From an uncultured Nocardioides sp. (GTDB lineage Bacteria > Actinomycetota > Actinomycetes > Propionibacteriales > Nocardioidaceae): DNA of 64,000 nucleotides. The translations under genes were made by a program, and so were the position numbers. Under the pieces are notes generated by a model. That model made no database searches and was not told where the DNA came from. It saw only the letters and a program-made list of their open reading frames with translations. Below are positions 31,384-50,000 of the stretch, in pieces. Numbering within the stretch: position 1 is the stretch's first letter; each line of letters opens with the position of its first letter. The stretch lies in the NCBI RefSeq assembly GCF_947489365.1, contig NZ_CANLDB010000007.1, positions 25,068 through 89,067 of the forward strand, in the 5' to 3' direction.

Positions 31384-31433
31384 GTCCACATGATGGACTC
31401 GCCGTCCGCATCATGAGATCTCAAGTTGTGAGC
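31384..31433. promoter_or_regulatory. Three 15-bp 5-5-5 operator-like boxes upstream of the sulfite reductase operon
   Basis: GTCCA-catga-TGGAC (31384-98, perfect), GTCCG-catca-TGAGA (31404-18), TCTCA-agttg-TGAGC (31419-33). Confidence 0.55.
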
Positions 31434-31551: not shown

Positions 31552-31623
31552 GGCGCCGACCCGCACCCCCGCGCCCGACACCGCCGTCGGGCCTCCTGCG
31601 ACCTGATCGAGGACTTCCTCCGC

Positions 31624-35494: not shown

Positions 35495-36270
35495 GCCTCG
35501 CCCCCGGGGAGCCACTGGCGGGTGCCGAGGCGCGCGGTGAGGAACGCGACGTACGCCGCCCGCAGCGCCGCCGGGTCCTCGGCGCCGGGCACCGGGTCGA
35601 GCCAGGCGTCGGGCACGCGGGCGAGGACGCCCTCCAGGCGCTCCGTGGTCAGCAACGAACCGAGCTCCTCGTCGAGCTCGCGGGCGCGCCCGGCGTGGGT
35701 GGTGAGCAGGTGGTCGCTCGCGTCCCAGCGCTGGGCCGCGAAGCGGGCGGGGTCGCCGACGCCGCCGGGCCAGGAGTGGTGGAAGTACAACGCCGCGCCG
35801 TGGTCGATCACCCACAGGCGCCGGTGCCACCACAGCAGGTTCGGGTTGCGCCAGCTGCGGTCGACGTTGGCGCACAGCGCGTCGAGCCACAGCACGCGGG
35901 CGGCGACGTCGGGCTCGGCGGCCGCCTGGCCGTCGTACCCGAAGGCGCCGGGGAGGAAGTCCACGCCCAGGTTGAGCCCGACGCTGGCGCGCAGCAGGTC
36001 CTGGACCTCCTCGTCGGCCTCGTACCGGGTCAGCGCCTTGGTGAGGTCGACCGTGACCTGCCGCGGGGTGGCCAGGCCGATGGCCTCGGCGATGCCGGCC
36101 ACCACCACCTCGGCCACGAGGACCCGCGGGCCCTGGCCGGCGCCGCGGTACTTCACGACGTAGGTGCCGAGGTCGTCGGCCTCCATCAGGCCCGGCAGCG
36201 ACCCGCCCTCCCGGAGCGGGGCGACGTACCGGGTCGCGGAGACGGCGGCGAGCGCCCCCTCCCCGGTCAC
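35491..36270 (-). CDS. HipA-like (HipA_2) kinase
   Basis: RYVAPLREGGSLPGLMEADD..YVVKYRGAGQG; catalytic NVDRSWRNPNL and IDHG motifs. Confidence 0.85.
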   Translation of the reverse strand: MTGEGALAAVSATRYVAPLREGGSLPGLMEADDLGTYVVKYRGAGQGPRVLVAEVVVAGIAEAIGLATPRQVTVDLTKALTRYEADEEVQDLLRASVGLNLGVDFLPGAFGYDGQAAAEPDVAARVLWLDALCANVDRSWRNPNLLWWHRRLWVIDHGAALYFHHSWPGGVGDPARFAAQRWDASDHLLTTHAGRARELDEELGSLLTTERLEGVLARVPDAWLDPVPGAEDPAALRAAYVAFLTARLGTRQWLPGGEA

Positions 36271-37106
36271 GAGATCGGGTCCTGCTCGAGCAGCCGGCGC
36301 CGCTCACCCTCGACGTCGACCTGTGCGGGCGGCCAGACGGGCGCCATCTCCGCGAGGGTGTCGCGCAGCAGGTGGGCCACGGCCAGGTTGCGGTACCACT
36401 TGCGGTCGGCCGGGACGACGAACCACGGGGCGACCTCGGTGCTGGTGCGCTCCAGCGCGGTCTCGTAGGCCGCCACGTAGTCGGACCACCGGGCCCGGTC
36501 GTCGATGTCGGAGGTGGCGAGCTTCCACTGCTTCGTGGGGTCGTCCATCCGGGACAGCAGGCGCTCCTTCTGCTCCTCGGGCGAGATCAGGAGCAGGCAC
36601 TTCACGACCCGGGTCCCCGACTCCACCACCTCGGCCTCGAAGTCGTTGATCGCGCCGTAGCGGCGCTCGATCTCGGTGTCGTCGGCGAGCGAGCGGACCT
36701 TGGCGGCCAGGACGTCCTCGTAGTGGGAGCGGTCGAACACCCCGACCTGACCGGCGGCCGGCAGCGCCCGGCGGATGCGCCAGAGGAAGTCGTGGGCGAG
36801 CTCCTCGTCGGTCGGGGCGCCGAAGCCGGTGATCCGCAGGCCCTGCGGGTCGACGAGCCCGGCCACGTGACGGACGGTGCCGCCCTTGCCGGCGGTGTCC
36901 ATGCCCTGCAGCACGAGCAGCACGCTGCGCGTCGAGCCGGTCACCCGCTCCGCGAACAGCCGCTCCTGCAGGTCGCCGAGGTCCGGCGCCAGCGCGGCCA
37001 GGGCCTCGCGCCCGGCCGCCTTGTCCCCCTCGAACCCGGGCGTGGCCCGGGTGTCGTACGAGGACAGGTCGACGGCGCCGGGCGGGAGGCGGAGCAGCTC
37101 GAGCAT
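36267..37106 (-). CDS. ppk2: Polyphosphate kinase 2 family protein
   Basis: Walker A LQGMDTAGKGG, HDFLWR, VFDRSHYEDV, ERLLSRMDDPTKQWK, PWFVVPADRKWYRN. Start ATG 37106 follows TAGGGT-N7. Confidence 0.93.
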   Translation of the reverse strand: MLELLRLPPGAVDLSSYDTRATPGFEGDKAAGREALAALAPDLGDLQERLFAERVTGSTRSVLLVLQGMDTAGKGGTVRHVAGLVDPQGLRITGFGAPTDEELAHDFLWRIRRALPAAGQVGVFDRSHYEDVLAAKVRSLADDTEIERRYGAINDFEAEVVESGTRVVKCLLLISPEEQKERLLSRMDDPTKQWKLATSDIDDRARWSDYVAAYETALERTSTEVAPWFVVPADRKWYRNLAVAHLLRDTLAEMAPVWPPAQVDVEGERRRLLEQDPIS

Positions 37107-37137
37107 GCCGATCACCCTAGGGCGCACCCCGGGGCGG

Positions 37138-37672: not shown

Positions 37673-37689
<17 letters not shown>
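37138..37689 (-). CDS. recX: Regulatory protein RecX
   Basis: [35 protein letters not shown]; lies directly downstream of recA. Confidence 0.93.
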
Positions 37690-38725
<1,036 letters not shown>

Positions 38726-38777
38726 GGTCCACTCCGTCCTCGGGTCTGCCGGCCGGGCATCTGCCGACCTGTCCGCG

Positions 38778-38800
38778 ACGTTAGGTGCGGCCACCGACAA
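38778..38800 (-). promoter_or_regulatory. RecA-NDp / PafBC-type DNA-damage promoter of recA
   Basis: Minus strand reads TTGTCGGTG-GCCGCACC-TAACGT, matching the mycobacterial consensus tTGTCRgtg-N8-TAnnnT. Confidence 0.85.
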
Positions 38801-38867
38801 CGGCCGGGACACCGTCCCGGCGCTGTGGAGAACTCGACCCGTCGTCCGCCTGTGGACACCACAGTAA

Positions 38868-38881
38868 CGAACAGATGTTCG
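38868..38881. promoter_or_regulatory. LexA (SOS) box of recA
   Basis: CGAAC-AGAT-GTTCG, the actinobacterial consensus, next to a minus-strand -10 TACTGT at 38861-38866. Confidence 0.9.
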
Positions 38882-38895
38882 ACGCGGCAGGAGCG

Positions 38896-39378
38896 CTACG
38901 GCGTGTCGGGGCGTGTCTGGTCGCGCCGGTCGGCAGGCGCCTCGTCCAGCGGGGCGCTGAGGTCCTCCGGGCGCGAGCGGCGACGCGCCGAGCGCACCAG
39001 CGCCCCCGCGAGGACCAGCCCCAGGACGACGCCGACCAGCACCAGGTAGCCGGTCGTGTAGTCCCGGTCCAGCAGCGTCGGGTTGTCGGGCAGCGCACCG
39101 AACCGGCCGAGGAACGGCACGGCCAGCACGGTGACCGTGGCCAGGACGACGAAGGCCACCCCGGCCGGCGCTCGCCACGACGCCGGCAGCAGCCGGCCCA
39201 GCAGCGCGAGGACGAGCAGGGCCAGCGGCGCCAGGAGCAGGTCGTGCACCAGCGCTCCCCCGACCAGCCACACCAGGGCGGACGGCAGGTCGTCGAGACG
39301 GTCGTGGACCAGCAGGAAGCCGCCGTACGCCGCGACGGCGGTGCCGACGACGGCCAGGACGAGACGCCCGGCGCTCAC
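38896..39378 (-). CDS. Small 4-TM membrane protein
   Basis: Hydrophobic helices with LVHDLLLAP and [14 protein letters not shown]-coupled to the oxidoreductase; it is the 3' part of track ORF 38896..40467. Confidence 0.8.
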
Positions 39379-40544
39379 AGCGTCTCCAACCGGGTGACCC
39401 ACTTGGTCTGAAGGACGCCGGGCCGGTTCGGGGCGATGATCCGGCAGGGGTAGCCGTGGTCCGGCGACAGCGTCTCCCCGTTGACCTCGAGGGCGAGCAG
39501 CGTGAGGGGGTCGTCGGCGAAGTTCGCAGGCAGCCGCGACGTCGAGAACGCGCCCCGCGTCTGCAGGGAGTAGACGCCGACGTCGGCGCCGCTGGTGCCG
39601 ACCAGCGCCATGACGTCGCTCATGCGGGGTCCGGTCCAGGTGGCCGAGGCGCTCCACCCCTCGACGCAGGCGATCGGCAGCTCGACCGTCTGCTGCGGCA
39701 GCGCGCGCAGGTCGTCGAGCGTGAGACGCCGTCCGGAGTCGCCCCGGAGCACGGTGAGCCGCCAGGACGACCCGGTGGCCTCCTCGCTCACGCCCGCCGC
39801 GACGGCGGTGCGGTTGATCGGCAGGCCCTGCGGCCCGTCGCCGGTGCGGACCCCGAGCACGGAGACCTTCCGCAGCAGCGGGACGGTGGCGCCGGCGGTG
39901 GCCACGACGGCGACGGTCGCGGCGAGCCAGGTGCTGCGCAGCAGGCCGCGTCGGCTCATCACGCCGTCCCGCGAGTGCTCCACGTCGTACGGCGGCGGGT
40001 GGTCGGGGTCGTCCTCCTCGACGTCGCGGGCGTACGCGCCGCGGATGGCCGGCAGCTTGAGCGCGACGTGGACGACGATCGCGCCGATCGCCAGCCACGC
40101 CACGGCGTAGTGGGTGGGCCGGAAGGAGAACTCCCACGGGTACCACTGGGTGGAGTTCATCAGCCCGGTGACGAGCTGGAAGACGCCGGAGGCGACGAGC
40201 ACCAGCGTCGCGAGCCGCTCGAGCCCGTGGACGACGGCCGCCCGCGGCGGCCACGCGACGACCCGCCCGAACAGGCGCGGGTAGACGGTCCACAGCTTGA
40301 CGAGCAGCAGCGGGATCGCGGCGGTGCCGGTGATGACGTGCAGCCCCTGCGTCACGCGGTAGCCCCAGGCCGGCCGCGTGGGGAAGGCCACCAGCGGGTC
40401 CGGCACCTGGGCCCAGTGGCTGACCAGGCCCGTCAGGAAGCAGATCCCGAAGGTGATGCCGAGCCACGTGCCGACGCGCGCGGCGACGGCCGGGCTGTGC
40501 AACCGGGAGGTGAAGTCCGTCTGCGAGGGCGTGCGGACGGCCAC
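39375..40544 (-). CDS. Cytochrome-b-like TM domain fused to a sulfite-oxidase/MsrP-family molybdopterin domain
   Basis: Four TM His (LVSHW, GLHV, PTHY, VVHV); internal SRRGLL; Mo-ligand PIACVEGWS; [22 protein letters not shown]. Confidence 0.85.
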
Positions 40545-40555
40545 GGGCGCTGTCC

Positions 40556-41236
40556 TCAGCTCGACGAGACGAGCACGGTGAACCACCGGTCGCCGTGCTG
40601 GTGGAACTCCTGGACGGACAGGCCCACCTCGGCGGCCACCTCGTCGACGGCGTCCGTGCCGACGACGGACCAGCGGAACGGACGGCTGCGCAGGCCGCCG
40701 GACTCCAGGCAGGCCCACATGGTCACGAAGCCCGCACCGGGCGGGGAGAGCTCGACGACGACCCGACCCCCGGGGTCGAGCAGCTCCTTGATCCGTCCGA
40801 GGAGCGCGATGGGGTCCCCGCCGATGCCGATGTTGCCGTCGGCGAGCAGCGCGGTCTGCCAGCGGCCCTCGCCGGGCAGGGTGTCGAAGACGTTGCGGAC
40901 GATCGCGGACACGCCGCGGTCCCGGGTCTGCAGGACCGCCTCGTGGACGACGTCGATGCCCAGCACGGTGTGGCCGACCTCGGAGAGGTGCTCGGCCATC
41001 CGGCCGGGGCCGCAACCGATGTCGAGGGTCGGGCCCTCGCACAGCGCGAGCAGCGCGCGGTCGGCCTCGTCGGCCTCGCGCTTCCACTCGGAGACCGGCA
41101 GGTGCTCGGGGGCGTCGCCGATGCCGACGACGGTGCAGGCCTCACCGCGCAGGGCGGCGGCGAAGACGTTGGTGAAGGAGGCGTCGGAGGTGACGCCGGC
41201 GTCGGCCAGGACGTCGTCCGCGGGCTCGAGGCTCAT
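40556..41236 (-). CDS. Class I SAM-dependent methyltransferase
   Basis: TLDIGCGPGR motif I, VLGID, LLADGNIGIGGD. ATGA-coupled to the DUF2064 gene. Confidence 0.88.
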   Translation of the reverse strand: MSLEPADDVLADAGVTSDASFTNVFAAALRGEACTVVGIGDAPEHLPVSEWKREADEADRALLALCEGPTLDIGCGPGRMAEHLSEVGHTVLGIDVVHEAVLQTRDRGVSAIVRNVFDTLPGEGRWQTALLADGNIGIGGDPIALLGRIKELLDPGGRVVVELSPPGAGFVTMWACLESGGLRSRPFRWSVVGTDAVDEVAAEVGLSVQEFHQHGDRWFTVLVSSS

Positions 41237-41949
41237 CGGGTGGCACCCACGTCCGTCGAGCCGACCCGGGCGGCGAGGCCGGCCCAGGCCCGGGCGAACT
41301 CCCCGTCGGGGGCGAGGCCGACGACGGCCTCGGCGTCGGCGACGGTGTCGACGTCGCGCAGGACCGGCAGGTCGGCCACCTCGACGCCCGCGGCGACGAG
41401 CGCCGCACGCGTGTCGGCGTACGTCGTGGGTGTCGACATCGGCACCGGCGCCAGGCTGGCGGCCCGGGCGGGGTCGCGCAGCGCGAGCACCCACCAGCCG
41501 CCGTCCTCGGCGGGCCCGAGGGCTGCCTCCGCGGTGTCGAGGGTCGCGGCGGCGGCGCGCAGCGCGGCCCCCGTGACCTGGGGCGTGTCCATCCCGATCT
41601 GCACCGTCGTCCCTCCCGCGCCCGACGCGTCGATCGCGTGGGCGGTGTCCTCGTGGGCGGCGGCGATCCGCTCACCCAGCTGCTCGCCGCGCTGCGGCAC
41701 CACGTGCCAGCCAGCGACGGCGGCGGTCAGCTCCTCACCGCGCACCGCCGCGGCCAGGTCCCCCTCGAGCGCGAGGTGGCAGTGCTCGGCGCCGAACGCG
41801 TCGGTCGCGGCGCGCAGGGTGTCCAGCAGCGAGGCGGCGGCCACCTCGGCGGCCTCCTCGAGGCCGATGTCGGCCCCCAGGCGCGTCTTCACGGCACCGG
41901 CCACCGGCGCCTTCGCCAGGACCAGGGCGTGGGCCTGCCACGTCGTCAT
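41233..41949 (-). CDS. DUF2064/TIGR04282-family GT-A fold protein (nucleotidyltransferase-like, Rv0540-like)
   Basis: LVLAKAPVAGAVKTRL, PQRG..LGERI..A, QIGMDTPQ, LGPAEDGGWW, LRDVDTVADA. Confidence 0.88.
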   Translation of the reverse strand: MTTWQAHALVLAKAPVAGAVKTRLGADIGLEEAAEVAAASLLDTLRAATDAFGAEHCHLALEGDLAAAVRGEELTAAVAGWHVVPQRGEQLGERIAAAHEDTAHAIDASGAGGTTVQIGMDTPQVTGAALRAAAATLDTAEAALGPAEDGGWWVLALRDPARAASLAPVPMSTPTTYADTRAALVAAGVEVADLPVLRDVDTVADAEAVVGLAPDGEFARAWAGLAARVGSTDVGATR

Positions 41950-42635
41950 GAGAGCACCTTCCAGAAATCCCGAGCCGTCCGCACCGTTCCGGTGACCGAC
42001 CCGGAGACCTTGGAGCGGGTGCCCTCGGCGCGGGGGTGGTAGCCGACGTCGTGCTCGCTCACCCGCCAACCGTGCAGGGTCACCTTCTGCAACAGCTCGA
42101 CAGGATAACCGAAGCGCCTGTCCTTCACGTCAAGGTCGAGCAACTCCTGCCGCCGGCACACCCGCATGGGGGCGATGTCGTGGGCGTCCATGCGGATGCG
42201 GCGGCGCAGCCAGGCGACGATCAGCTGGTTGCCGGCACGCGCGTGCCAGGGCCACACGCCCCGTCGTACGGGGCGGCGTCGGCCGACGGACATGTCCGCC
42301 CGGCCGGCGCGCACGTCGTCCAGCAGGACCAGCAGCTCGTCGGGGTCGAAGGACCCGTCGCCGTCCATGACGGCGAGGAACTCGCGGGTCGCCGCCTCGA
42401 CGCCGGCGTGGACGGCGGCGCCGTACCCGGGCACGGTCTCGCGGACGACGAGGGCGCCGTGCTCGGCGGCCACCGCCGCGGTGTCGTCGGTGGAGTTGTT
42501 GTCGACGACGATGACGGAGAAGGCGCCCGGGATCCGGGGCAGGAGACCGCGCAGCGCCGGGCCCTCGTCCTTGCAGGGCAGGACGAGATCGCAGCAGGGC
42601 TGCTCGCCCGACGACTGCTTCTCGGTCGACGACAT
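41946..42635 (-). CDS. GT2 polyprenyl-phosphate glycosyltransferase (Rv0539-like)
   Basis: LVLPCKDEG, VVDNNSTDDT, GYGAAVHAG, MDGDGS, YHPRAEGTRSKVSG. Start ATG 42635 follows TAGGTT-N7. Confidence 0.9.
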   Translation of the reverse strand: MSSTEKQSSGEQPCCDLVLPCKDEGPALRGLLPRIPGAFSVIVVDNNSTDDTAAVAAEHGALVVRETVPGYGAAVHAGVEAATREFLAVMDGDGSFDPDELLVLLDDVRAGRADMSVGRRRPVRRGVWPWHARAGNQLIVAWLRRRIRMDAHDIAPMRVCRRQELLDLDVKDRRFGYPVELLQKVTLHGWRVSEHDVGYHPRAEGTRSKVSGSVTGTVRTARDFWKVLS

Positions 42636-42686
42636 GAGGGACAACCTATGTCGGACGCGGTTGGAGCATCTCCTAGGCTCCCCGGC

Positions 42687-44096
42687 ATGTCGACCACCCG
42701 GCGAGCCGACGAGACCTCGACCACGCCGGAGGCGGCCTCCGCCCGGGGCGCCGCCCTCGGTCTCGGTGTGACCCTGGTCATCATGGCAGCCTCCACCGCC
42801 GTCCCGCTGCTGACGGGGTGGCAGGTGTGGACGCACTCGACGATCGAGGGTCGCGAGTTCCCGCCGCTGCACTCCCGCTGGTCGCCCAACGTCGGCCCGG
42901 GGACCATCCCCGCCGTCGTCATTGCCCTGGCCGCCCTCGTCGGCGCGCGACGGGTCGCGGAGCGGTTGTCGTGGCGTCCGCTGCTGGCCGTCGCGTTCGT
43001 CGTCGGGCTGGCCTGGATGCTGTCCCTGGCGTACGTCGACGGCTCGTCCGGGATCTCGCGGGTGCTCGGCAACCCGTACGAGTACCTCATCACCGCCCGG
43101 GAGATCGACGACATCCCGGCGATGATCGACGGGTTCACCGAGCGGATCCCGTACGCCCACCCGCAGAACTGGGTGGTCCACATCGCCGGCCACCCGCCGG
43201 GGATGTTCCTGTACTTCGTGTGGCTCGACCGCCTCGGGCTGGGTGACGACTGGACGGCCGGGATCATCGTGACCGTCGCCGCCGCCACCACTCCCCTGGC
43301 CCTGATGGTGGCGATGAGGGCGCTCGGCGCCGAGGCGATGGTGCGCCGCGCCCTGCCCTTCCTCGTGCTCGGGCCGGCCGCCCTGTTCGCCGCGGTCTCC
43401 GCCGACGCGCTCATCGCGGTCACCGCCTCCTGGGGCCTGGCCCTGATGGCGATCGCGGGCACGCGCGCCTCCCGCGGCGCGATGGCCGCCTGGGCCGTCG
43501 CGGCGGGGCTGACGCTCGGCTGGACCGTGATGACGTCCTGGGGCATCGGCCTGATCGGCATCCTCGCGCTGACGATCCTGTGGCTGACCCGGTCGTGGTG
43601 GCTGTTCCCCGTGATCGCCGCCAGCGCGCTGGTCGTGGTCCTCGTCTTCTCGTTCTACGGCTTCCACTGGTGGGAGGCCTTCCCCGTCCTGCAGGAGCGC
43701 TACTGGGACGGTCTCGCCGCCGACCGCCCCGCGGCGTACTGGATGTGGGGCAACCTCGGCGCCCTCGCGTACGCCGCCGGACCCGCCGTCGGCGCCGGCC
43801 TCGGCCGGCTCGCCACGATGCGGCCCTCGCGGTTCGACGAGGTGGCCGCCGACACGGGCACGGACCGCCGCGCGGTCGCGGTGACCGTGGCCCTGTCGCT
43901 GGCGATGACCGCCGTCGTCCTCGCCGCCGACCTGTCACGCATGAGCAAGGCCGAGGTCGAGCGGATCTGGCTGCCGTTCGTGCCGTGGCTCCTGCTCGCC
44001 ACCGCCCTGCTCCCCGCCCGCTGGCGCACGCCCCTGCTCGGGCTCGGCATGGTCGTGGCGCTCGTCGTCCAGCACCTCTTCTACACGTCCTGGTAG
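42687..44096 (+). CDS. Polytopic GT-C-type membrane glycosyltransferase (Rv0541c/MtxT-like)
   Basis: About 11-12 TM segments; EYL, HIAGHPPG, SADA, DLSRMSKAEVERIWLPF loop motifs. Start ATG 42687 follows TAGGCT-N7. Confidence 0.75.
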   Translation: MSTTRRADETSTTPEAASARGAALGLGVTLVIMAASTAVPLLTGWQVWTHSTIEGREFPPLHSRWSPNVGPGTIPAVVIALAALVGARRVAERLSWRPLLAVAFVVGLAWMLSLAYVDGSSGISRVLGNPYEYLITAREIDDIPAMIDGFTERIPYAHPQNWVVHIAGHPPGMFLYFVWLDRLGLGDDWTAGIIVTVAAATTPLALMVAMRALGAEAMVRRALPFLVLGPAALFAAVSADALIAVTASWGLALMAIAGTRASRGAMAAWAVAAGLTLGWTVMTSWGIGLIGILALTILWLTRSWWLFPVIAASALVVVLVFSFYGFHWWEAFPVLQERYWDGLAADRPAAYWMWGNLGALAYAAGPAVGAGLGRLATMRPSRFDEVAADTGTDRRAVAVTVALSLAMTAVVLAADLSRMSKAEVERIWLPFVPWLLLATALLPARWRTPLLGLGMVVALVVQHLFYTSW

Positions 44097-44175
44097 GTCG
44101 CGCGGCCCGCCGCGGTCGGTGAGTCACACGCGTCCCTCTGGGCGCGGTGGTCACTCTGGTCTCAGAAGCCTTCGG

Positions 44176-44205
44176 GGGGTTTCACCAGCCGACCCGTGAA
44201 ACCCC
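44176..44205. repeat. Third copy of the GGGGTTTCAC...GTGAAACCCC palindromic element
   Basis: 27/30 identical to 29171-29200; lies between convergent genes. Confidence 0.85.
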
Positions 44206-44261
44206 GGCCGACGCCCCACGAGCCCCAAGAAACCCACACGCCCCACGCGCCCCAGCAGCGG

Positions 44262-45305
44262 TCAGCTGCGCAGCGGCGCCGTGGCGAAGGCGGCGAGGCC
44301 CTCGGTGGGGCCGACCTGGGCGGTGAAGCCGAGGTCGGCGGCAGCGCGGGCCGGGGAGGCGACGATGTGGCGGACGTCGCCGAGGCGGTACTGGCCGGTG
44401 ACGACCGGCTCGATCCCGCTGCCGGTGCCGGCGGCGACGCGGCGGGCGACGTCGAGGATCGCCACGGGCTCCCCCGAGCACACGTTGTACGCCGCGTGGG
44501 ACTGCGTCGGCGCCTCCCGCACGGCGTCGATCGACAGCACGTTCATGCGCGCCACGTCGTCGACGTGGACGAAGTCGCGCATCTGCCCACCGTCCTCGTA
44601 GACCGTGGGGGCCTCGCCGCGCTCCAGGGCGGACCGGAACATCGCCGCCACCCCCGAGTACGGCGTGTCGCGGGGCATGCCGGGGCCGTAGACGTTGTGG
44701 TAGCGCAGCGAGACCGCCGCGGCGCCCGCCTGCCGCACCCACGCGACCGCGTAGTGCTCCTGGGCGACCTTGGACGCGGCGTAGCTGCTGCGGGGGTCGA
44801 GGCGGGCGTCCTCGTCGACGGGCTCCCACCCGAGCGGCTCGCCGCAGACGGGACAGGGGTTCTCGAAGGCCCCGCCGTCGAGGGCGTCGGTGGTGCGGGT
44901 GCCGGGCAGCTGGTGGCCGTGCGTGGCGCAGGCGTAGCGCCCCTCGCCGTACACGACCATCGAGGACGCCTGCACGAGCCGGTCGACGCCGTGCTCGGTC
45001 ATCGCCGCCATGAGGACGGCGGTGCCGAGGTCGTTGTGGCCGGCGTACTCGGGCATGTCCGCGACGGTGACCCCGGCGCCGACCATGGCCGCCTGGTGGC
45101 ACACGACGTCGATGCCGTCGAGCAGCTCGCCCCAGGCGCCGGCGTCGCGGACGTCGAGCTGGTGGACGCCCTCGGGCGCGGTGGCCGAGCCGTGGGCCGC
45201 GGGCAGCATGAGGTCCACGCCGACGACCTCGTCGCCGCGGGCGGTCAGCTGGTCGGTGATCCTCGCGCCGATGAAACCGGCGGCGCCGGTGAGCAGGACG
45301 CGCAT
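44262..45305 (-). CDS. NAD-dependent epimerase/dehydratase (extended SDR, Rv0536-like)
   Basis: VLLTGAAGFIG, CHQAAMVG, ASSMVVYGEG, YAASK, LRYHNVYGP, RDFVHV. TGATG-coupled to the phosphorylase. Confidence 0.92.
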   Translation of the reverse strand: MRVLLTGAAGFIGARITDQLTARGDEVVGVDLMLPAAHGSATAPEGVHQLDVRDAGAWGELLDGIDVVCHQAAMVGAGVTVADMPEYAGHNDLGTAVLMAAMTEHGVDRLVQASSMVVYGEGRYACATHGHQLPGTRTTDALDGGAFENPCPVCGEPLGWEPVDEDARLDPRSSYAASKVAQEHYAVAWVRQAGAAAVSLRYHNVYGPGMPRDTPYSGVAAMFRSALERGEAPTVYEDGGQMRDFVHVDDVARMNVLSIDAVREAPTQSHAAYNVCSGEPVAILDVARRVAAGTGSGIEPVVTGQYRLGDVRHIVASPARAAADLGFTAQVGPTEGLAAFATAPLRS

Positions 45306-46123
45306 CAGCGGCCCGGGATCTCGTAGGTGACGTCGACGCCGTCGGTCCAAGCGGCGCACGAGCAGCCGTCCGGGTCGGGCAGGTCGCCGATGGTGGCGCC
45401 CAGCAGCTCCTTGAGCCGCTCGATGCGCGAGGCGAAGAGCGCGAACACCTCGTCCTGGGAGACGCCCGAGCCCTCCTCGACGCCGGCGTCCATGTCGGTG
45501 ACCAGCGCGACCGCGGAGTAGCACATGGTCATCTCGCGGGCGAGGACCGCCTCGGGGTGGCCGGTCATGTTGACCAGCGTCCAGCCCTGCGCGGCGTAGT
45601 GCTGCGACTCGGCGCGGGTGGAGAAGCGGGGGCCCTCGATGACGACCATCGTGCCGCCGTGGGCGACGTCGTCGCCCTGCACGGCGGCGGAGAGCCGCGC
45701 GCAGTACGGGTCTGCGAAGGGCAGGTGCACCGCGCCGGTCTCGACGTACGACTGGGTGCGGGTGAAGGTGCGGTCGACGAGCTGGTCGGGGACGACGATG
45801 TCGCCCGGTGCCACCTCGGTGCGCAGACCGCCGACGGCGCAGGGCGCCAGCACCTGGCGGACGCCGAGGGAGCGCAGCGCCCAGAGGTTCGCGCGGTAGT
45901 TGATCGCGTGGGGCGGGTAGGCGTGGTGCTGCCCGTGGCGCGGGAGGAAGGCCGCCGACCGCCCGTTGACGGTGCCGATCGCGATCGACGACGACGGGTC
46001 GCCGTACGGCGTGGAGACGGTGTGCTCGACGGGGTCGTCCAGGAAGGAGTAGAAGCCGGTCCCGCCGATGACGGCGACGTCGGCGGTGGGCTGCACGCTG
46101 GGCTCGACGGAAGGGGTGCTCAC
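45305..46123 (-). CDS. mtnP: S-methyl-5'-thioadenosine phosphorylase
   Basis: VIGGTGFY, TPYGDPS, FLPRHG.HH.YPPH.INYRANLWAL, IEGPRFSTRAES, NMTGHPEA.LARE, LVTDMD. Start re-assigned to GTG 46123. Confidence 0.93.
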   Translation of the reverse strand: MSTPSVEPSVQPTADVAVIGGTGFYSFLDDPVEHTVSTPYGDPSSSIAIGTVNGRSAAFLPRHGQHHAYPPHAINYRANLWALRSLGVRQVLAPCAVGGLRTEVAPGDIVVPDQLVDRTFTRTQSYVETGAVHLPFADPYCARLSAAVQGDDVAHGGTMVVIEGPRFSTRAESQHYAAQGWTLVNMTGHPEAVLAREMTMCYSAVALVTDMDAGVEEGSGVSQDEVFALFASRIERLKELLGATIGDLPDPDGCSCAAWTDGVDVTYEIPGR

Positions 46124-46149
46124 GGGCGGAACTCTGCCAGCAGCGGCGC

Positions 46150-46344
46150 TCAGCGCTGGGACGCGGGCAGTCCGAGGACCTCCCACACGGCGGCCCACAC
46201 CTGCTTCGGGGGCACGCCGTCGGCCAGCGCCTGGTGGGGCGTGCGGCCGTCGAGGGCGGCGATGACGGTCCGTCCGGCCCAGAAGTCGGCGTAGCCGTCG
46301 CCCAGGGCCTCCCGCAGGCGCGCGTCCAGCTCCGTGTGCCTCAC
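46150..46344 (-). CDS. DUF3046 family small protein
   Basis: MRHTEL..RL.EALG..YA..WA...VIAALDGRT..QAL..GVPPKQVWAAVWEVLGLP. It is the 3' end of track ORF 46150..48426. Confidence 0.88.
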   Translation of the reverse strand: MRHTELDARLREALGDGYADFWAGRTVIAALDGRTPHQALADGVPPKQVWAAVWEVLGLPASQR

Positions 46345-46406
46345 GCCCGACATCTTCCCAGCCGGGGCCAGGGGCGCCCAGGGGCCGGTGTTGCGATGAT
46401 GGCCGG

Positions 46407-46916
46407 ATGCCCGGCTACGCCACCCGCTCCGCGACCGAGCGCGACCTCGCCGCGATCGCCTCGATCTACAACCACGCCGTGGAGCACAGCCACTCCACCT
46501 TCGACCTCGAACCACCGGACCTGGACTACTGGCGGGCACGCCTCGACGGTCAGCACCCCGGGGACCACCTGCTGGTCGCCGTGACCGAGGACGACGACGT
46601 GGTCGGCTACGCCTACTCCTGGTCGTTCCGCCCGCGGCCGGCGTACGACTACACCCGCGAGACCTCGATCTACCTCGACAACTCCGTGCGCGGCCAGGGG
46701 ATCGGCCGGATGCTCTACCCGGCGCTGCTGCAGACCATGGCCGTCTCCGGGGTCCACACCGCCATCGCCGCCGTCGCGCTGCCGAACCCCTCCAGCGAGC
46801 GGCTGCACGTCGCCTGCGGCTTCGAGCACGTCGGCACCTTCCGCGGCGTCGGCTGGAAGTTCGGCGGCTGGATCGACATGGCCTTCTACCAGCGGATGCT
46901 CGTGACCCTCCCCTGA
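46407..46916 (+). CDS. GNAT N-acetyltransferase (Pat/MddA family)
   Basis: IYNHAV..S.STFD..PP, FRPRPAYDYT.ETSIYL, RGQGIG..LY, VGWKFGGWID. Confidence 0.88.
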   Translation: MPGYATRSATERDLAAIASIYNHAVEHSHSTFDLEPPDLDYWRARLDGQHPGDHLLVAVTEDDDVVGYAYSWSFRPRPAYDYTRETSIYLDNSVRGQGIGRMLYPALLQTMAVSGVHTAIAAVALPNPSSERLHVACGFEHVGTFRGVGWKFGGWIDMAFYQRMLVTLP

Positions 46917-46994
46917 CCTGCGTCGACCGGAGCCGGACCGGCACGACGGGCCGGCCTGGGTACCCCCTCGGGTGCGCGGACGTCCCGGCGCGGC

Positions 46995-47016
46995 TGTCGG
47001 TGGTGTCGGAGAGGAT
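46995..47016 (+). promoter_or_regulatory. PafBC-type (RecA-NDp) promoter of lhr
   Basis: TGTCGGTG-GTGTCGGA-GAGGAT, then 6 nt to the GTG start. The -10 has one mismatch to TAnnnT. Confidence 0.7.
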
Positions 47017-47022
47017 GGTCGG

Positions 47023-50000
47023 GTGAGCGACGAGCAGGCGGCGCTGGAGGCGTTCAGCCCCGCCACGCGGACGTGGTTCGCGGCGGCGTTCGCGGAGCCC
47101 ACCCCGGCGCAGGCGGGGGCCTGGGCGGCGATCCGGAGCGGACGCCACGCCCTCGTCGTCGCCCCGACGGGGTCGGGCAAGACGCTGTCGGCGTTCCTGT
47201 GGTCGCTGGACCGCCTGCTGACCACCGCTCCTCCCGAGGAGGCGCAGCACCGCTGCCGGGTGCTGTACGTCTCCCCGCTGAAGGCGCTGGCCGTGGACGT
47301 CGAGCGCAACCTCCGCGCGCCCCTGGCGGGGATCGGCCACACCGCCGACCGCCTCGGCGAGACGCTCCGCGACGTCGCGGTGGGCCTCCGCTCCGGGGAC
47401 ACCTCGGCCGCCGACCGTCGCAGCCTCGCGAGCCGGCCGCCGGACATCCTCATCACGACGCCGGAGTCGCTGTTCCTCATGCTGACCTCGCAGGCGCGGG
47501 AGTCGCTGCGGGGCGTCGAGACCGTGGTCGTCGACGAGGTCCACGCGGTCGCCGGCACCAAGCGCGGCGCCCACCTCGCGCTCACCCTCGAGCGCCTCGA
47601 CGGGCTGCTCGAGCGGCCCGCGCAGCGCATCGGGCTGTCGGCGACGGTGCGACCCCACGAGGAGGTCGCCCGCTTCCTCGGCGGGACGGCGCCCGTCGAG
47701 GTCGTCGCCCCGCCCACGACCAAGGAGTGGGACCTCACGGTTGTCGTCCCCGTGGCCGACATGGCCCAGCCCGCGCCGTACGACGACTCGCGGCTCGCCG
47801 CGCCGCCGTCCCCGCCGCCGGCCGAGCCACCCGCGGAGGACGCGGCGCCGGCGCCCGAGGAGGACTCCGACCCGTTCGCCGACCTCTTCGGCGGCTCCGG
47901 GCCGGGCCCGGGGAGGAACGCGCCGGGCACGCCCGCCGACCCCGAGCGCTCGGGGTCGCTGTGGCCCCACGTCGAGCGCAGCGTCCACGACCTCGTCGTG
48001 GCGCACTCCTCGACGATCGTGTTCGCCAACTCCCGGCGCCTCGCGGAGCGGCTGACCGCGAAGCTCAACGAGATCGCCGCCACCGACGCGGGCCTCGCGG
48101 CCGACGACGCGGCCGACCCGGACCTCCCCGCCGCGCAGAACCCGGGGCAGTCCGGGACCGCCCCCGGCGCGGCCCCGCTGGTGGCCAAGGCGCACCACGG
48201 GTCGGTGTCGAAGGAGCAGCGCGCCGTCATCGAGGACGAGCTGAAGCGCGGCGTCCTGCCCTGCGTGGTCGCCACCTCCAGCCTGGAGCTGGGCATCGAC
48301 ATGGGCGCCGTCGACCTCGTCGTCCAGGTGGAGTCGCCGCCGTCGGTGGCCAGTGCCCTGCAGCGCGTCGGCCGCGCGGGCCACCAGGTCGGCGAGGTCT
48401 CGCGCGGCGTCCTGTACCCCAAGCACCGCGGCGACCTCGCCCAGACCGCCGTCGCCGTCCAGCGGATGCGGTCAGGCGCGATCGAGTCCATGCGGGTGCC
48501 CGCCAATCCGCTCGACGTGCTGGCCCAGCAGGTCGTCGCCATGACCGCGCTGGACGCCTGGGACGTCGAGGAGCTCTACGCGCTGGTACGCCGCAGCGCC
48601 CCGTTCTCCCAGCTGCCCCGCGGCGCCTTCGAGGCCACCCTCGACCTGCTCAGCGGGCGCTACCCGTCCGAGGAGTTCTCCGAGCTGCGCCCCCGCATCG
48701 TGTGGGACCGCGTCGCCGGCACCCTGACGGGCCGCCCCGGCGGGCAGCGGCTCGCGGTCACCAGCGGTGGCACCATCCCCGACCGCGGCATGTTCGGCGT
48801 GTTCCTCGCCGGCGGCGAGGGTCCCGGCCGCCGGGTCGGCGAGCTCGACGAGGAGATGGTCTACGAGTCCCGCGTCGGTGACGTCTTCGCCCTCGGGGCC
48901 ACCAGCTGGCGCATCGAGGACATCTCCCACGACCGCGTGCTGGTCACCCCGGCGCCGGGTGTGCCGGGCCGGTTGCCGTTCTGGCGCGGCGACTCCCTGG
49001 GCCGTCCCTCCGAGCTCGGGGAGGCGATCGGCGCCTACACCCGCGAGCTCGCCGGCATGGCGCCCGACACGGCCCGCGCACGCGCCCGGGAGAACGACCT
49101 CGACGAGTGGGCCGCCGACAACCTGGTGACCTACCTGAACGAGCAGACCGCCGCGATCCCGACGCTGCCCAGCGACCGGTCGCTCGTCGTCGAGCGGTTC
49201 CGCGACGAGCTGGGCGACTGGCGCCTGGTCCTCCACTCGCCGTACGGCACCCCCGTGCACGCCCCCTGGGCGCTCGCGATCAACGCCCGCATGCGCGAGC
49301 GGTACGGCGTCGACGGACAGGCGGTCGCCTCGGACGACGGCATCGTCATCCGGGTCCCCGACACCGACGCCGAGCCGCCCGGCGGCGACCTCGTCGTCTT
49401 CGAGCCCGACGAGATCGAGGACATCGTCACCACCGAGGTCGGCTCGTCGTCGCTGTTCGCGTCACGCTTCCGCGAGTGCGCCGCCCGGGCCCTGCTGCTC
49501 CCCCGCCGCGACCCCGGACGCCGCTCCCCGCTGTGGCAGCAGCGCCAGCGCGCCGCCCAGCTGCTCGAGGTCGCCGTCCGCTACCCGTCGTTCCCGATCG
49601 TGCTCGAGGCGGTCCGCGAGTGCCTCCAGGACGTGTACGACCTGCCCGGCCTCGTCGGGCTGATGCGCCGCGTGGACCGGCGCGAGGTGTCGGTCTCGGA
49701 CGCGGAGACGTCGTCACCGTCGCCCTTCGCGCGGACGCTGCTGTTCGGCTACGTCGCGCAGTTCGTCTACGAGGGCGACTCGCCCCTCGCCGAGCGGCGC
49801 GCCGCGGCGCTGTCCCTCGACCCCGGGCTCCTCGCCGAGCTGCTCGGCCGGGCCGAGCTCCGGGAGCTGCTGGACCCCGACGTCCTCGCCGAGGTCGAGG
49901 CCGAGCTGCAGCGGCTGGCCGAGGACCGGCGCTGCCGCGACGCCGAGGCGGTCGTCGACATGCTGCGGCTGCTGGGCCCGCTGACGCTCGAGGAGGTCGC

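What the first reader, a model, noticed from the sequence alone, without database searches (positions are those of the whole stretch)
38896..46123. Expanded methylthio-sugar (MTX-like) surface-modification cluster with three extra genes: best novel-system candidate
Seen: eight clustered genes, mostly with overlapping stop/start codons: MTA phosphorylase, NAD epimerase, GT-C, GT2, DUF2064, methyltransferase, Mo-oxidoreductase and a small membrane protein. Established (from recall): the first five match the functional set of the M. tuberculosis Rv0535/0536/0539/0540/0541c cluster, which makes the 5-methylthioxylose cap of lipoarabinomannan. The proposed route is MTA to methylthioribose-1-P, nucleotide activation, epimerisation, polyprenyl-P loading, then GT-C transfer. 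Inference: this organism puts a methylthiopentose or a derivative on an unknown surface acceptor, since a LAM acceptor is not something I can assume for this host. The three extra coupled genes extend the chemistry beyond the mycobacterial pathway.
Basis: partly seen in the sequence, partly recalled or inferred. Interest (0 to 1): 0.85.

Follow-up and report, generated by a model that had tools for sequence, protein, structure and literature searches.

The report
Methylthio-sugar capping cluster with Mo-reductase module
A Nocardioides genome carries the actinobacterial gene set for putting a methylthio-sugar on the cell surface (known from the tuberculosis bacillus), joined to a conserved methyltransferase and an outward-facing molybdenum enzyme that may repair the sugar's sulfur after oxidation.

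Summary
The eight genes are real and sit exactly at 38896-46123, between DUF3046 and recA. Five match the M. tuberculosis methylthioxylose (MTX) set by function: MTA phosphorylase, SDR epimerase, DUF2064, a Dpm1-like GT2, and a 469-aa protein confirmed as GT-C by fold.

The three "extra" genes are not special to this genome. Among 64 related loci with full flanks, the methyltransferase lies beside the core in 59 and the Mo enzyme in 54. This holds through several gene-order rearrangements and in Nocardioidaceae, Microbacteriaceae, Mycobacteriales (including environmental Mycobacterium) and Solirubrobacterales. A small membrane ORF follows the Mo gene in 59 of 66 loci. The eight-gene form is therefore the common one, and M. 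tuberculosis looks reduced.

The Mo enzyme belongs to the Sco3746 family: haem-b membrane domain, internal Tat motif, exported Moco domain. It shares the E. coli MsrP active-site motif.

Best reading: an MTX-type capping pathway plus a menaquinol-driven, outward-facing reductase that returns the sulfoxide sugar (MSX) to MTX. The methyltransferase's substrate is unknown.

Direct comparison with Rv0535-Rv0541c was not possible. I rate it a new variant of a known kind, of moderate interest.

The parts
45305..46123 (-). S-methyl-5'-thioadenosine phosphorylase (MTAP). It would make 5-methylthioribose-1-phosphate from MTA.
   Evidence: NCBIfam NF005876 at 399 bits (cut-off 306) and TIGR01694; Pfam PNP_UDP_1. 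Present in 51 of 64 related loci.
44262..45305 (-). NAD-dependent SDR sugar-nucleotide epimerase (GalE3-like). It carries a Cys-x2-His...Cys-x2-Cys insertion at about residues 126-154.
   Evidence: Pfam Epimerase 4e-46. Best PDB matches are MoeE5 and GalE-type epimerases. Its start overlaps the MTAP stop by 4 nt. Present in 60 of 64 loci. Insertion conservation.
42687..44096 (+). GT-C-fold polytopic glycosyltransferase (MtxT-like). It is predicted to transfer the sugar from a polyprenyl-phosphate donor on the outer face of the membrane.
   Evidence: No Pfam or NCBIfam hit. AlphaFold pLDDT 90.8, pTM 0.92. Foldseek top hits are ArnT, AftA, STT3/PglB/AglB, Pmt, Emb, ALG3/9 and PimE. Homologues are named 'methylthioxylose transferase' by JGI. 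The family has 1230 clusters at 50% identity. Invariant residues include D240 and E423-x-E425-R-I-W.
41946..42635 (-). Soluble GT2 polyprenyl-phosphate sugar synthase (MtxS/Dpm1-like). An alternative TTG start lies at 42644.
   Evidence: Pfam Glycos_transf_2. Best NCBIfam hits are AglJ, dolichyl-P-hexose transferase and PpgS. PDB match is Pyrococcus DPMS 5mlz. Present in 61 of 64 loci.
41233..41949 (-). DUF2064 protein, the candidate nucleotidyltransferase that would activate methylthioribose-1-P.
   Evidence: Pfam DUF2064 3.6e-25. NCBIfam TIGR04282 at 120 bits (below the 134 cut-off) and CofC guanylyltransferase 8e-7. PDB 3cgx 'putative nucleotide-diphospho-sugar transferase' 2.6e-11. 4-nt overlap with GT2. 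Present in 62 of 64 loci.
40556..41236 (-). Class I SAM-dependent methyltransferase of a distinct subfamily; the acceptor is unknown.
   Evidence: Several Pfam Methyltransf families. Conserved DxGCGPGR, LGxD and LLaDGNxGxGGDP motifs. The nearest PDB entries are uncharacterised class I MTases 9khp/9klx. 4-nt overlap with DUF2064. Present in 59 of 64 loci. Retained in M. vanbaalenii, where the Mo enzyme is absent.
39375..40544 (-). Sco3746-family membrane oxidoreductase: four TM helices with conserved His (haem b), an internal twin-arginine motif (SRRGLLR, R198-R199), TM5, and an exported SUOX-fold Moco domain with Cys293.
   Evidence: Pfam Oxidored_molyb 9e-25 and Ni_hydr_CYTB 3.5e-6. Topology; invariant residues. 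PDB profile hits are SUOX family only. AlphaFold and Foldseek. E. coli MsrP aligns with a shared CVE(A/G)WS motif. The architecture is described in PMC5449189.
38896..39378 (-). Small 4-TM membrane protein, the obligate partner of the Mo enzyme. Its conserved residues (W37, H45-D46, P88, LxRxY) lie on the predicted outer face.
   Evidence: 4-nt overlap with the Mo gene. No Pfam or PDB family. A small multi-TM ORF with the HD motif follows the Mo gene in 59 of 66 loci. It is absent wherever the Mo gene is absent.
42636..42686 (.). 51-nt divergent intergenic region between GT2 and GT-C. It presumably holds both promoters, possibly for leaderless transcripts.
   Evidence: Sequence read. No sigma-70 consensus was found, which is expected at this GC content.
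44235..44250 (-). Weak terminator-like hairpin after the SDR gene, in the convergent gap with the GT-C gene.
   Evidence: It is the only terminator-like site in 38600-46500.

Best explanation
This is the full actinobacterial version of the methylthiopentose (MTX-type) glycan-capping system, in three transcription units. Cytoplasmic steps (inferred from domains and from the published Mtb model): MTAP converts MTA to 5-methylthioribose-1-P; DUF2064, a CofC/MobA-like nucleotidyltransferase fold, activates it to a nucleotide sugar; the SDR epimerises it; and the soluble GT2 loads it onto polyprenyl phosphate. After flipping, the GT-C protein transfers the sugar to an envelope acceptor. That acceptor is unknown in Nocardioides; mannosides of lipoglycans or O-mannosylated proteins are the obvious candidates. 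A conserved accessory module is attached. The first part is a class I SAM methyltransferase, translationally coupled to DUF2064, which most likely tailors the sugar precursor (acceptor unknown). The second is a Sec/Tat-inserted haem-b/Moco oxidoreductase of the Sco3746 family with its small 4-TM partner. I propose that the Mo enzyme takes electrons from menaquinol through haem b and reduces the methylsulfinyl form of the sugar (MSX) back to the thioether (MTX) on the outer face of the membrane. This is the chemistry MsrP performs on methionine sulfoxide, and it would make the cap a renewable antioxidant. What is shown: gene content, folds, topology motifs, and conserved linkage. What is inferred: every enzymatic step, the identity of the sugar, the acceptor, and the substrate of the Mo enzyme. 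My confidence is about 0.8 for the core pathway assignment, about 0.85 that the three genes form a genuinely linked accessory module, and about 0.3 for the MSX-reductase function.
For: Core: domain assignments; GT-C fold; the JGI name 'methylthioxylose transferase' on homologues from Nocardioides and Mycolicibacterium; reciprocal best matches with the M. vanbaalenii locus, which is flanked by menE-like, DUF3349 and glyoxalase genes; and MtxS=Rv0539, MtxT=Rv0541c in the literature (PMC8780516, PMC12088412). Linkage of the accessory genes: among 64 loci with at least 8 kb on both sides, MTase is present in 59 and MoOx in 54, against GT2 61, DUF2064 62 and MTAP 51. They stay linked through at least five different gene orders, in Nocardioidaceae, Microbacteriaceae, Mycobacteriales, Amycolatopsis, Stackebrandtia and Solirubrobacterales. 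A small TM ORF follows MoOx in 59 of 66 loci. Mo enzyme: invariant RR motif before TM5, His69/145/159 and Cys293, matching the Sco3746 family, whose Moco domain was shown to be Tat-exported (PMC5449189). It is SUOX-fold only. E. coli MsrP aligns at 96% probability with the shared CVE(A/G)WS...W(I/T)G active-site segment. Chemistry: Mtb LAM carries both MTX and MSX (PMC8531672); MsrA reduces MSX in vitro, according to a review citing Stalford 2009 (PMC6400530); an antioxidant role for MTX has been proposed (PMC10503756). MSX has the same CH2-S(O)-CH3 group as methionine sulfoxide. From established redox potentials, sulfoxide reduction by menaquinol is downhill, whereas thioether oxidation with menaquinone as acceptor is uphill.
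Against: No Mtb protein could be compared directly, so orthology to Rv0535-Rv0541c is indirect. No chemistry is known for any non-mycobacterial carrier, so the sugar could be a derivative. The 80 loci are the best 80 of at least 587 matches, so they are biased towards relatives of the query. Linkage does not identify a substrate: the Mo enzyme could serve general envelope repair or sulfite detoxification. It also occurs unlinked, as Rv0218 in Mtb and in phyla unlikely to have MTX (PMC5449189). Its membrane domain is unrelated to MsrQ. The fold search cannot separate reductase-type from oxidase-type SUOX domains, and it also matches the non-catalytic pterin-binding protein PruR. The MTase has no informative relative. 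Some clusters lack the module altogether (L012, L019, L044, Mtb), so it is dispensable for making the cap.
Confidence: 0.6

Rival explanations
1. The MTase, Mo enzyme and small membrane protein form an independent envelope-maintenance module that merely travels with the MTX genes. The Mo enzyme would be the actinobacterial equivalent of MsrPQ, repairing methionine sulfoxide in exported proteins, or a sulfite:menaquinone oxidoreductase. It would have no specific action on the sugar.
For: Family members occur unlinked to MTX genes: Rv0218 in Mtb, and Sco3746 homologues in Firmicutes, Chloroflexi and Euryarchaeota. The best sequence and fold matches include true sulfite oxidases and dehydrogenases. 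The module is dispensable, being absent in L012, L019, L044 and L082.
Against: Linkage to the MTX core survives at least five rearranged gene orders across distant families, which is hard to explain without a shared function. The active-site segment is of the MsrP type (CVEGWS), and HMMER did not align the sulfite-oxidase Cys segment. A general repair enzyme would not be expected inside a sugar operon, translationally coupled downstream of DUF2064-MTase.
Confidence: 0.25
2. In genomes that carry the methyltransferase, the final sugar is not MTX itself but a methylated derivative: an O-methyl-methylthiopentose, or an S-methylated dimethylsulfonium pentose. M. tuberculosis, lacking the MTase, makes the plain form. 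This is compatible with the best explanation and refines it.
For: The MTase is as tightly linked as the core genes (59 of 64). It overlaps DUF2064 by 4 nt and is kept in M. vanbaalenii, Rhodococcus ruber and Williamsia, where the Mo enzyme is gone. It has an intact SAM motif I and an invariant Gly-rich DGNxGxGGDP loop that could bind a phosphate-bearing substrate. Weak PDB relatives include sugar-modifying MTases such as GenN, CcbJ and TcaB9.
Against: There are no chemical data. The PDB similarities are generic class I matches. The acceptor could equally be the glycan acceptor, a lipid or a quinone.
Confidence: 0.3
3. The Mo enzyme is biosynthetic. It deliberately oxidises the thioether to the sulfoxide, so MSX is the intended end product.
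For: MSX is abundant on Mtb LAM. SUOX-family enzymes catalyse oxygen-atom transfer to sulfur, as in sulfite oxidases.
Against: From established potentials, thioether oxidation with a haem-b/menaquinone acceptor is thermodynamically uphill. Mtb makes MSX although its MTX cluster has no Mo enzyme. The active-site motif matches the reductase MsrP.
Confidence: 0.07
4. The small 4-TM protein is the flippase for the polyprenyl-phosphate sugar, like GtrA, ArnE/F or Rv3789 in other three-component glycan-modification systems, and is not a partner of the Mo enzyme.
For: Its size and four TM helices resemble small lipid-sugar flippases. The cluster otherwise lacks a flippase candidate.
Against: No GtrA or other family match. 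It always directly follows the Mo gene, usually overlapping it by 4 nt, and it disappears together with the Mo gene while GT2 and GT-C remain (L082, L075, L078, L066, L043). Its conserved residues lie on the outer face.
Confidence: 0.08
5. The DUF2064/GT2 pair works in an arsenosugar-type pathway, as the NCBIfam TIGR04282/TIGR04283 names suggest, and not on a methylthio sugar.
For: DUF2064 hits TIGR04282 (120 bits) and GT2 weakly hits TIGR04283. Both pathways process a 5'-substituted 5'-deoxyadenosine.
Against: Both scores are below the curated cut-offs (134 and 182). There is no radical-SAM ArsS or ArsM-type gene in the cluster, whereas an equivalog-level MTAP is present. The GT-C homologues carry the MtxT label.
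Confidence: 0.02

Closest known systems
M. tuberculosis MTX capping cluster Rv0535 (pnp), Rv0536 (galE3), Rv0539 (MtxS), Rv0540 (DUF2064), Rv0541c (MtxT); Angala et al. 2017, cited in PMC8780516, PMC10675199 and PMC12088412
   Same: The same five functional types are clustered: MTAP, SDR epimerase, GT2 polyprenyl-P-sugar synthase, DUF2064 and a GT-C transferase. The GT-C family carries the MtxT label in JGI annotation. Environmental mycobacterial loci link the two ends of the family.
   Different: The host is a non-mycolate Nocardioides with no established LAM acceptor. The cluster lies between DUF3046 and recA. It carries three further conserved genes (MTase, Sco3746-type Mo enzyme, small TM partner) that, by Rv numbering and my recollection, are absent between Rv0540 and Rv0541c. 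It lacks equivalents of the Mtb membrane genes Rv0537c and Rv0538 (recollection). The product has not been determined.
Sco3746 family of polytopic Moco-binding proteins inserted by Sec and Tat together (Tooke et al., eLife 2017, PMC5449189); Rv0218 of M. tuberculosis (PMC5800017)
   Same: Five TM helices, conserved TM histidines for haem b, an invariant twin-arginine motif directly before TM5, and a C-terminal Moco domain with a conserved Cys.
   Different: Only the biogenesis of that family was studied and no function is known. Here the gene sits in a sugar-capping operon with an obligate small TM partner, which suggests a substrate.
E. coli MsrPQ (YedYZ), the periplasmic methionine-sulfoxide reductase system
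   Same: An exported SUOX-fold Moco domain with the same CVE(A/G)WS...W(I/T)G cysteine segment, wired to a membrane haem-b protein and the quinone pool. The proposed substrate group, CH2-S(O)-CH3, is the same.
   Different: It is fused into one polypeptide. The membrane domain is unrelated to MsrQ and to cyt b561 YodB. The catalytic domain is much shorter, about 165 aa. It has an extra small TM partner. The proposed substrate is a glycan-borne sugar, not a protein.
Three-component polyprenyl-phosphate sugar modification systems (GtrA/GtrB/GtrC; ArnC/ArnE-F/ArnT; mycobacterial PpgS/Rv3789/Rv3779)
   Same: A cytoplasmic GT2 loads a sugar on polyprenyl phosphate and a GT-C enzyme transfers it outside. 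ArnT is the best structural match of the GT-C, and PpgS and AglJ are among the best GT2 matches.
   Different: No recognisable GtrA or SMR-type flippase. The sugar donor comes from MTA salvage rather than central sugar-nucleotide metabolism.
Arsenosugar-associated TIGR04282/TIGR04283 (DUF2064 + GT2) pair
   Same: The same two-protein cassette acts downstream of a 5'-substituted 5'-deoxyadenosine, which supports the idea that DUF2064 and GT2 handle 5-deoxy-5-X-pentoses.
   Different: Scores are below both curated cut-offs. There is no radical-SAM ArsS. MTAP and GT-C are present instead.

Membership tests
MTX (methylthioxylose) capping gene cluster | Clustered MTAP, SDR epimerase, DUF2064, GT2 polyprenyl-P-sugar synthase and GT-C transferase | tested here: met
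   All five lie within 38896-46123. The same set occurs in 50-62 of 64 related loci.
MTX (methylthioxylose) capping gene cluster | GT-C and DUF2064 proteins are orthologues of Rv0541c (MtxT) and Rv0540 | tested here: inconclusive
   Mtb sequences could not be reached: the genome scan kept only the best 80 loci, and the mycobacterial profile search listed only Mycolicibacterium at 73% identity or more. Indirect support comes from the JGI 'methylthioxylose transferase' label, reciprocal best matches to M. vanbaalenii, and that locus's menE-like, DUF3349 and glyoxalase flanks.
MTX (methylthioxylose) capping gene cluster | The product is 5-deoxy-5-methylthio-xylofuranose attached to mannoside caps of lipoarabinomannan | not testable with these tools
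   This needs GC-MS or NMR of envelope glycans from wild type and GT-C/GT2 mutants. The acceptor in Nocardioides is unknown.
GT-C glycosyltransferase superfamily | Polytopic membrane protein with the GT-C fold | tested here: met
   AlphaFold pLDDT 90.8, pTM 0.92. The top Foldseek hits are all GT-C enzymes at probability 1.00 with TM-score 0.39-0.43: ArnT 5f15, AftA 8if8, STT3, AglB, PglB, Pmt, Emb, ALG3/9 and PimE.
GT-C glycosyltransferase superfamily | Catalytic acidic residue in the first extracytoplasmic loop | tested here: inconclusive
   The first loop (residues 44-72) has no conserved acidic residue. Conserved acids are D118 (85%), E132 (95%), D240, E423 and E425 (all 100%). The catalytic residue cannot be assigned.
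Sco3746 family (dual Sec/Tat polytopic Moco proteins) | Five TM helices with a twin-arginine motif directly before TM5 | tested here: met
   TM segments at 19-37, 64-82, 104-122, 146-164 and 206-224, with SRRGLLR at 197-203. R198-R199 are at least 90% conserved in 66 orthologues and invariant in the nine-sequence set A2. The definition is in PMC5449189.
Sco3746 family (dual Sec/Tat polytopic Moco proteins) | Conserved TM histidines for haem b, and a C-terminal Moco domain with a cysteine ligand | tested here: met
   H69, H145 and H159 are invariant (H43 within Nocardioides). C293 is invariant in [10 protein letters not shown]. Pfam Oxidored_molyb 9e-25; SUOX fold. Cofactor binding itself was not tested.
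MsrPQ (YedYZ) methionine-sulfoxide reductase system | MsrP-type Moco catalytic domain | tested here: met
   hhalign against E. coli MsrP: probability 96.3%, E 1.8e-9, 128 columns, shared CVE(A/G)WS...W(I/T)G segment. NCBIfam MsrP is only 3.4e-7, far below its cut-off. This is a resemblance, not equivalog membership.
MsrPQ (YedYZ) methionine-sulfoxide reductase system | A separate MsrQ (ferric-reductase-type) haem-b membrane subunit | tested here: not met
   The membrane domain is fused and shows no similarity to E. coli MsrQ (E 0.26) or YodB (E 0.63). So this is not a member of MsrPQ, although it may work like it.
MsrPQ (YedYZ) methionine-sulfoxide reductase system | Sulfoxide reductase activity | not testable with these tools
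   This needs an enzyme assay with menadiol or benzyl viologen and MSX-glycoside, Met-O and sulfite.
Arsenosugar TIGR04282/TIGR04283 system | Scores above the curated cut-offs and an associated radical-SAM ArsS | tested here: not met
   TIGR04282 scores 120 against a cut-off of 134, and TIGR04283 scores 28.6 against 182. No radical-SAM gene is in the cluster.
GtrA-type small flippase (for the 160-aa protein) | Match to the GtrA family or a related small flippase family | tested here: not met
   No such hit for 11 orthologues in Pfam at E up to 1, and none in the PDB. The gene is lost together with the Mo gene, not with GT2 or GT-C.

The most novel reading that the evidence does not exclude
The Sco3746/Rv0218-type Mo enzyme and its small partner are a dedicated, menaquinol-powered repair system for an oxidised glycan. 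On the outer face of the membrane it would reduce methylsulfinyl-pentose caps back to methylthio-pentose, so the cap acts as a renewable antioxidant shield across soil Actinomycetota. That would be the first enzymatic redox repair of a carbohydrate. It would assign a function to an orphan Mo-enzyme family that includes Rv0218, reported as required in vivo. It would also explain why both MTX and MSX are found on mycobacterial LAM.
Probability: 0.3. Interest if true: 0.8.

Novelty: new variant of a known kind. Interest (0 to 1): 0.55.

Why it matters
MTX is a rare sugar that matters for tuberculosis diagnostics and for how LAM interacts with the host, yet its biological role is unsettled. This analysis makes three points. 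First, the Mtb five-gene cluster appears to be a trimmed version of an eight-gene system that is widespread in soil actinobacteria. Second, the trimmed-off part includes an outward-facing Mo enzyme with MsrP-like active-site features, and Mtb keeps a relative elsewhere as Rv0218. Third, natural variants exist with and without each accessory gene.

Together these give a concrete, testable idea for two open questions: what MTX/MSX is for, and what the Sco3746/Rv0218 family does. They also point to tractable non-pathogenic organisms (Nocardioides, Rhodococcus, Mycolicibacterium) in which to test it.

If the idea is wrong, the finding is still a correct annotation of a conserved but ordinary glycan-modification locus.

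Tried and rejected
1. Direct comparison with Rv0535-Rv0541c failed. The primary paper (PMC5357196) and a review (PMC5831173) are not held. The single genome scan kept the best 80 loci and M. tuberculosis was not among them. My last homologue search, with a mycobacterial GT-C profile, returned only Mycolicibacterium/Mycobacterium spp. at 73% identity or more.

Sequence and profile searches of the PDB gave only uncharacterised class I MTases, and a literature search for the closest entries (9KHP/9KLX) found nothing.

3. No transcriptome exists for this organism, so operon structure rests on overlaps and spacing.

4. The promoter scan found nothing, which is uninformative at 74% GC.

5. The small membrane protein has no family in Pfam, NCBIfam or the PDB. 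I rejected the flippase idea because the gene is lost together with the Mo gene.

6. I considered whether the 'MTase' might be an MTA-generating aminopropyl or aminocarboxypropyl transferase. Nothing supports it: the protein has a canonical methyltransferase motif I.

7. I rejected the arsenosugar reading because the scores are below cut-off and there is no ArsS gene.

8. I tested whether the membrane domain of the Mo enzyme is MsrQ- or YodB-like. It is not.

9. Literature searches for this cluster outside mycobacteria, or for DUF2064 function, were unproductive.

Full report
**Observation.** The window is about 74% G+C, so raw ORF lists are full of spurious frames. Third-position GC phasing resolves eight genes between 38896 and 46123:
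- MTAP, 45305-46123(-)
- SDR epimerase, 44262-45305(-)
- a 469-aa polytopic protein, 42687-44096(+)
- GT2, 41946-42635(-), with an alternative start at 42644
- DUF2064, 41233-41949(-)
- class I SAM methyltransferase, 40556-41236(-)
- a membrane/Oxidored_molyb fusion, 39375-40544(-)
- a 160-aa 4-TM protein, 38896-39378(-)

Pfam and NCBIfam support all of these except the 469-aa and 160-aa proteins. MTAP reaches equivalog level (399 bits against a cut-off of 306). Four junctions overlap by 4 nt. The 469-aa gene is on the opposite strand, 51 nt from GT2.

The set is flanked by DUF3046 (46150-46353) and by recA (37673-38725). recA has its own SOS box, TCGAACATCTGTTCG, at 38868-38882, so the cluster is not part of the recA unit.

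**The GT-C candidate.** It has no family hit, but a 40-sequence alignment gave an AlphaFold model with pLDDT 90.8 and pTM 0.92. Its best PDB matches are all GT-C enzymes: ArnT, AftA, STT3/PglB/AglB, Pmt, Emb, ALG3/9 and PimE. The closest named relative is from Nocardioides sp. CFH 31398 (88% identity), which identifies the host genus. Several JGI homologues are labelled 'methylthioxylose transferase'. The family is large, with 1230 clusters at 50% identity.

**The core pathway.** The literature held here confirms that Rv0539 is MtxS, which makes the polyprenyl-P-MTX donor, and that Rv0541c is MtxT. The primary paper was not available. DUF2064 resembles CofC-type nucleotidyltransferases and PDB 3cgx. 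GT2 resembles dolichyl/polyprenyl-P-sugar synthases. The SDR resembles GalE- and MoeE5-type epimerases.

I could not obtain Mtb sequences, so I used a proxy. A mycobacterial GT-C profile retrieved many Mycolicibacterium proteins, some also labelled 'methylthioxylose transferase'. The M. vanbaalenii locus has GT-C, MTase, DUF2064 and GT2, with SDR and MTAP further along. It lies next to AMP-binding (menE-like), DUF3349 and glyoxalase genes, as I recall the Rv0541c-Rv0546c region of Mtb does. Each of its proteins is the reciprocal best match of the corresponding window gene, at 40-64% identity. The core assignment is therefore well supported but indirect.

**The three extra genes.** A profile scan of one genome per species returned 80 loci from Nocardioides, Marmoricola, Agromyces, Microbacterium, Leifsonia, Humibacter, Rhodococcus, Gordonia, Williamsia, Nocardia, Mycobacterium/Mycolicibacterium, Amycolatopsis, Actinopolyspora, Stackebrandtia, Solirubrobacterales and Acidimicrobiaceae.

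A tblastn survey of the 64 loci with at least 8 kb on both sides gave these counts:

| Gene | Loci with the gene (of 64) |
|---|---|
| GT2 | 61 |
| DUF2064 | 62 |
| SDR | 60 |
| MTAP | 51 |
| MTase | 59 |
| Mo enzyme | 54 |
| small TM | 42 |

The small gene evolves fast, so tblastn undercounts it. An ORF scan finds a 142-177-aa multi-TM ORF with the same HD motif directly after the Mo gene in 59 of 66 loci.

Linkage persists through at least five gene orders: Nocardioides type, Microbacteriaceae type, Solirubrobacterales type, Rhodococcus fascians type and Mycolicibacterium type. The MTase and Mo genes stay adjacent when relocated.

Losses are nested: all three genes (L012, L019, L044), or the Mo gene and its partner only (L043, L066, L075, L078, L082). 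Within Mycobacteriaceae there are eight-gene clusters (L071, L077, L079), a cluster with MTase only (M. vanbaalenii), and, by Rv numbering and my recollection, none of the three in M. tuberculosis. The eight-gene form is therefore the common one, not an expansion peculiar to this window.

**The Mo enzyme.** Hydropathy and charge give four TM helices, a cytoplasmic loop ending in SRRGLLR, a fifth TM helix, and a C-terminal domain outside the membrane. Across 66 orthologues, R198-R199, H69, H145, H159 and C293 (in [10 protein letters not shown]) are at least 90% conserved, and all are invariant in the nine-sequence set A2.

This is the architecture of the Sco3746 family: five TMDs, two predicted b haems, and a Moco domain whose Tat-dependent export was shown experimentally. 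Its function was never addressed (PMC5449189). Mtb has an unlinked member, Rv0218, described as multi-TM with a C-terminal molybdopterin domain and reported as required in vivo (PMC5800017).

PDB profile hits are confined to the SUOX family. The AlphaFold model (Mo domain pLDDT above 90) matches sulfite oxidases and dehydrogenases, YedY/MsrP, nitrate reductase, and the small pterin-binding PruR proteins. E. coli MsrP, taken from K-12, aligns with the family profile at 96% probability and shares the cysteine segment: rCVEaWSmvvpWiG against [14 protein letters not shown]. Sulfite oxidases aligned only downstream of the cysteine. The membrane domain is unrelated to MsrQ and to YodB.

**Proposed mechanism.** Mtb LAM carries both MTX and its sulfoxide MSX (PMC8531672). 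MsrA reduces MSX in vitro (PMC6400530, citing Stalford 2009), but MsrA is cytoplasmic. MTX has been proposed to act as an antioxidant (PMC10503756). MSX carries the same methyl sulfoxide group as methionine sulfoxide.

An outward-facing, haem-b-wired enzyme with an MsrP-like active site, genetically tied to the MTX genes, is therefore a natural candidate for a menaquinol:MSX reductase. From established potentials, reduction is the favourable direction with menaquinol. I put this at about 0.3.

The small partner's conserved residues lie on the predicted outer face, and it is lost together with the Mo gene. I therefore treat it as a subunit or adaptor and not as the lipid-sugar flippase.

The methyltransferase has canonical SAM motifs and an invariant DGNxGxGGDP loop but no informative relative. 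Its tight coupling to DUF2064, and its retention where the Mo enzyme is lost, suggest a cytoplasmic tailoring step on the sugar precursor. The product in MTase-bearing species may therefore be a methylated derivative.

**Caveats.**
- The 80 loci are the best of at least 587 matches and are biased towards the query's relatives.
- Linkage does not prove a substrate.
- The Mo family also exists outside MTX contexts.
- No chemistry exists for any non-mycobacterial carrier.
- The Mtb comparison is indirect.
- Statements about Rv gene order, the sulfite-oxidase CAGNRR motif and the Angala 2017 abstract come from my own recollection.

**Verdict.** The core is a member of a known pathway type whose conservation in other actinomycetes was, as I recall, already noted by its discoverers. 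The new element is the widely conserved accessory module, not described in the literature I could search, and the hypothesis it suggests. I rate it a new variant of a known kind, with interest 0.55.

Noticed in passing
window 38868-38882 (- strand): A LexA/SOS-box-like palindrome, TCGAACATCTGTTCG, lies 14 nt after the stop of the small membrane gene and about 140 nt upstream of recA. recA therefore has its own damage-inducible promoter directly abutting the cluster.
   Followed up: partly
window 46150-46353 and 37673-38725; loci L016, L023, L027, L036 against the others: DUF3046 and recA, usually neighbours in actinobacteria (my recollection), are separated here by the 7.4-kb cluster. Among the 64 full-flank loci the commonest gene order (16 loci) has the cluster between them. 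In a few Nocardioidaceae DUF3046 sits next to recA and the cluster lies beyond it, which implies a local rearrangement.
   Followed up: partly
window 44262-45305 (-), residues about 126-154 of the SDR: The epimerase has an insertion with a Cys-x2-His...Cys-x2-Cys pattern that looks like a zinc site. It is conserved in about 75% of 70 orthologues and replaced by D/G/D/T in the rest. Such a site is not typical of GalE-type enzymes.
   Followed up: partly
loci L002, L005, L037, L041, L048, L059, L060, L065, L068: A second subtype of the Mo enzyme (N-terminus WRSPLRGPWLTS..., 37-42% identical to the window's) comes with its own diverged MTase and small TM ORF. It is still adjacent to the MTX core but in different positions.
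   Followed up: partly
loci L019, L044, L012 (no accessory genes); L043, L066, L075, L078, L082 (MTase only): These are natural variants lacking the whole accessory module, or only the Mo enzyme and its partner. In L019 and L044, recA follows DUF2064 directly. They are ready-made comparators for chemistry.
   Followed up: partly
loci L009 (Nocardioides aequoreus), L064 (Actinopolyspora), L013: These GT-C family members (42-50% identical) have none of the cluster genes within 10 kb. The family therefore includes paralogues or unlinked copies, and GT-C presence alone does not imply the pathway.
   Followed up: no
Foldseek hits 7kom, 7kp2, 7kos, 7rkb against the Mo domain (window 39375-40050): The short (about 165 aa) Mo domain matches the small periplasmic pterin-binding PruR proteins with the highest target-normalised TM-scores (0.63-0.76). 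The family keeps the Mo-ligand Cys, but this is a reminder that minimal SUOX domains can be non-catalytic binders.
   Followed up: no
window 31552-34243 (+): Sulfite reductase (NIR_SIR) and PAPS reductase genes lie 5-7 kb from the cluster, and CbiX follows in the relative L001. This sulfur-assimilation neighbourhood is probably coincidental.
   Followed up: no
window 35491-37127 (-): A HipA_2-like kinase and a PPK2 polyphosphate kinase lie just beyond recX. In L001 a DUF3037 gene accompanies the HipA_2 gene, which may be a toxin-antitoxin-like pair.
   Followed up: no
window 46972-51783 (+) and 52431-57491 (-): There is a 1603-aa Lhr-type helicase with all four Lhr winged-helix domains, and a 1686-aa protein with LTD, metallophosphatase and 5'-nucleotidase domains. 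The ORF at 29288-31420 (710 aa) matches SHMT only in its C-terminal part (best stretch residues 386-657) and is probably over-extended.
   Followed up: no
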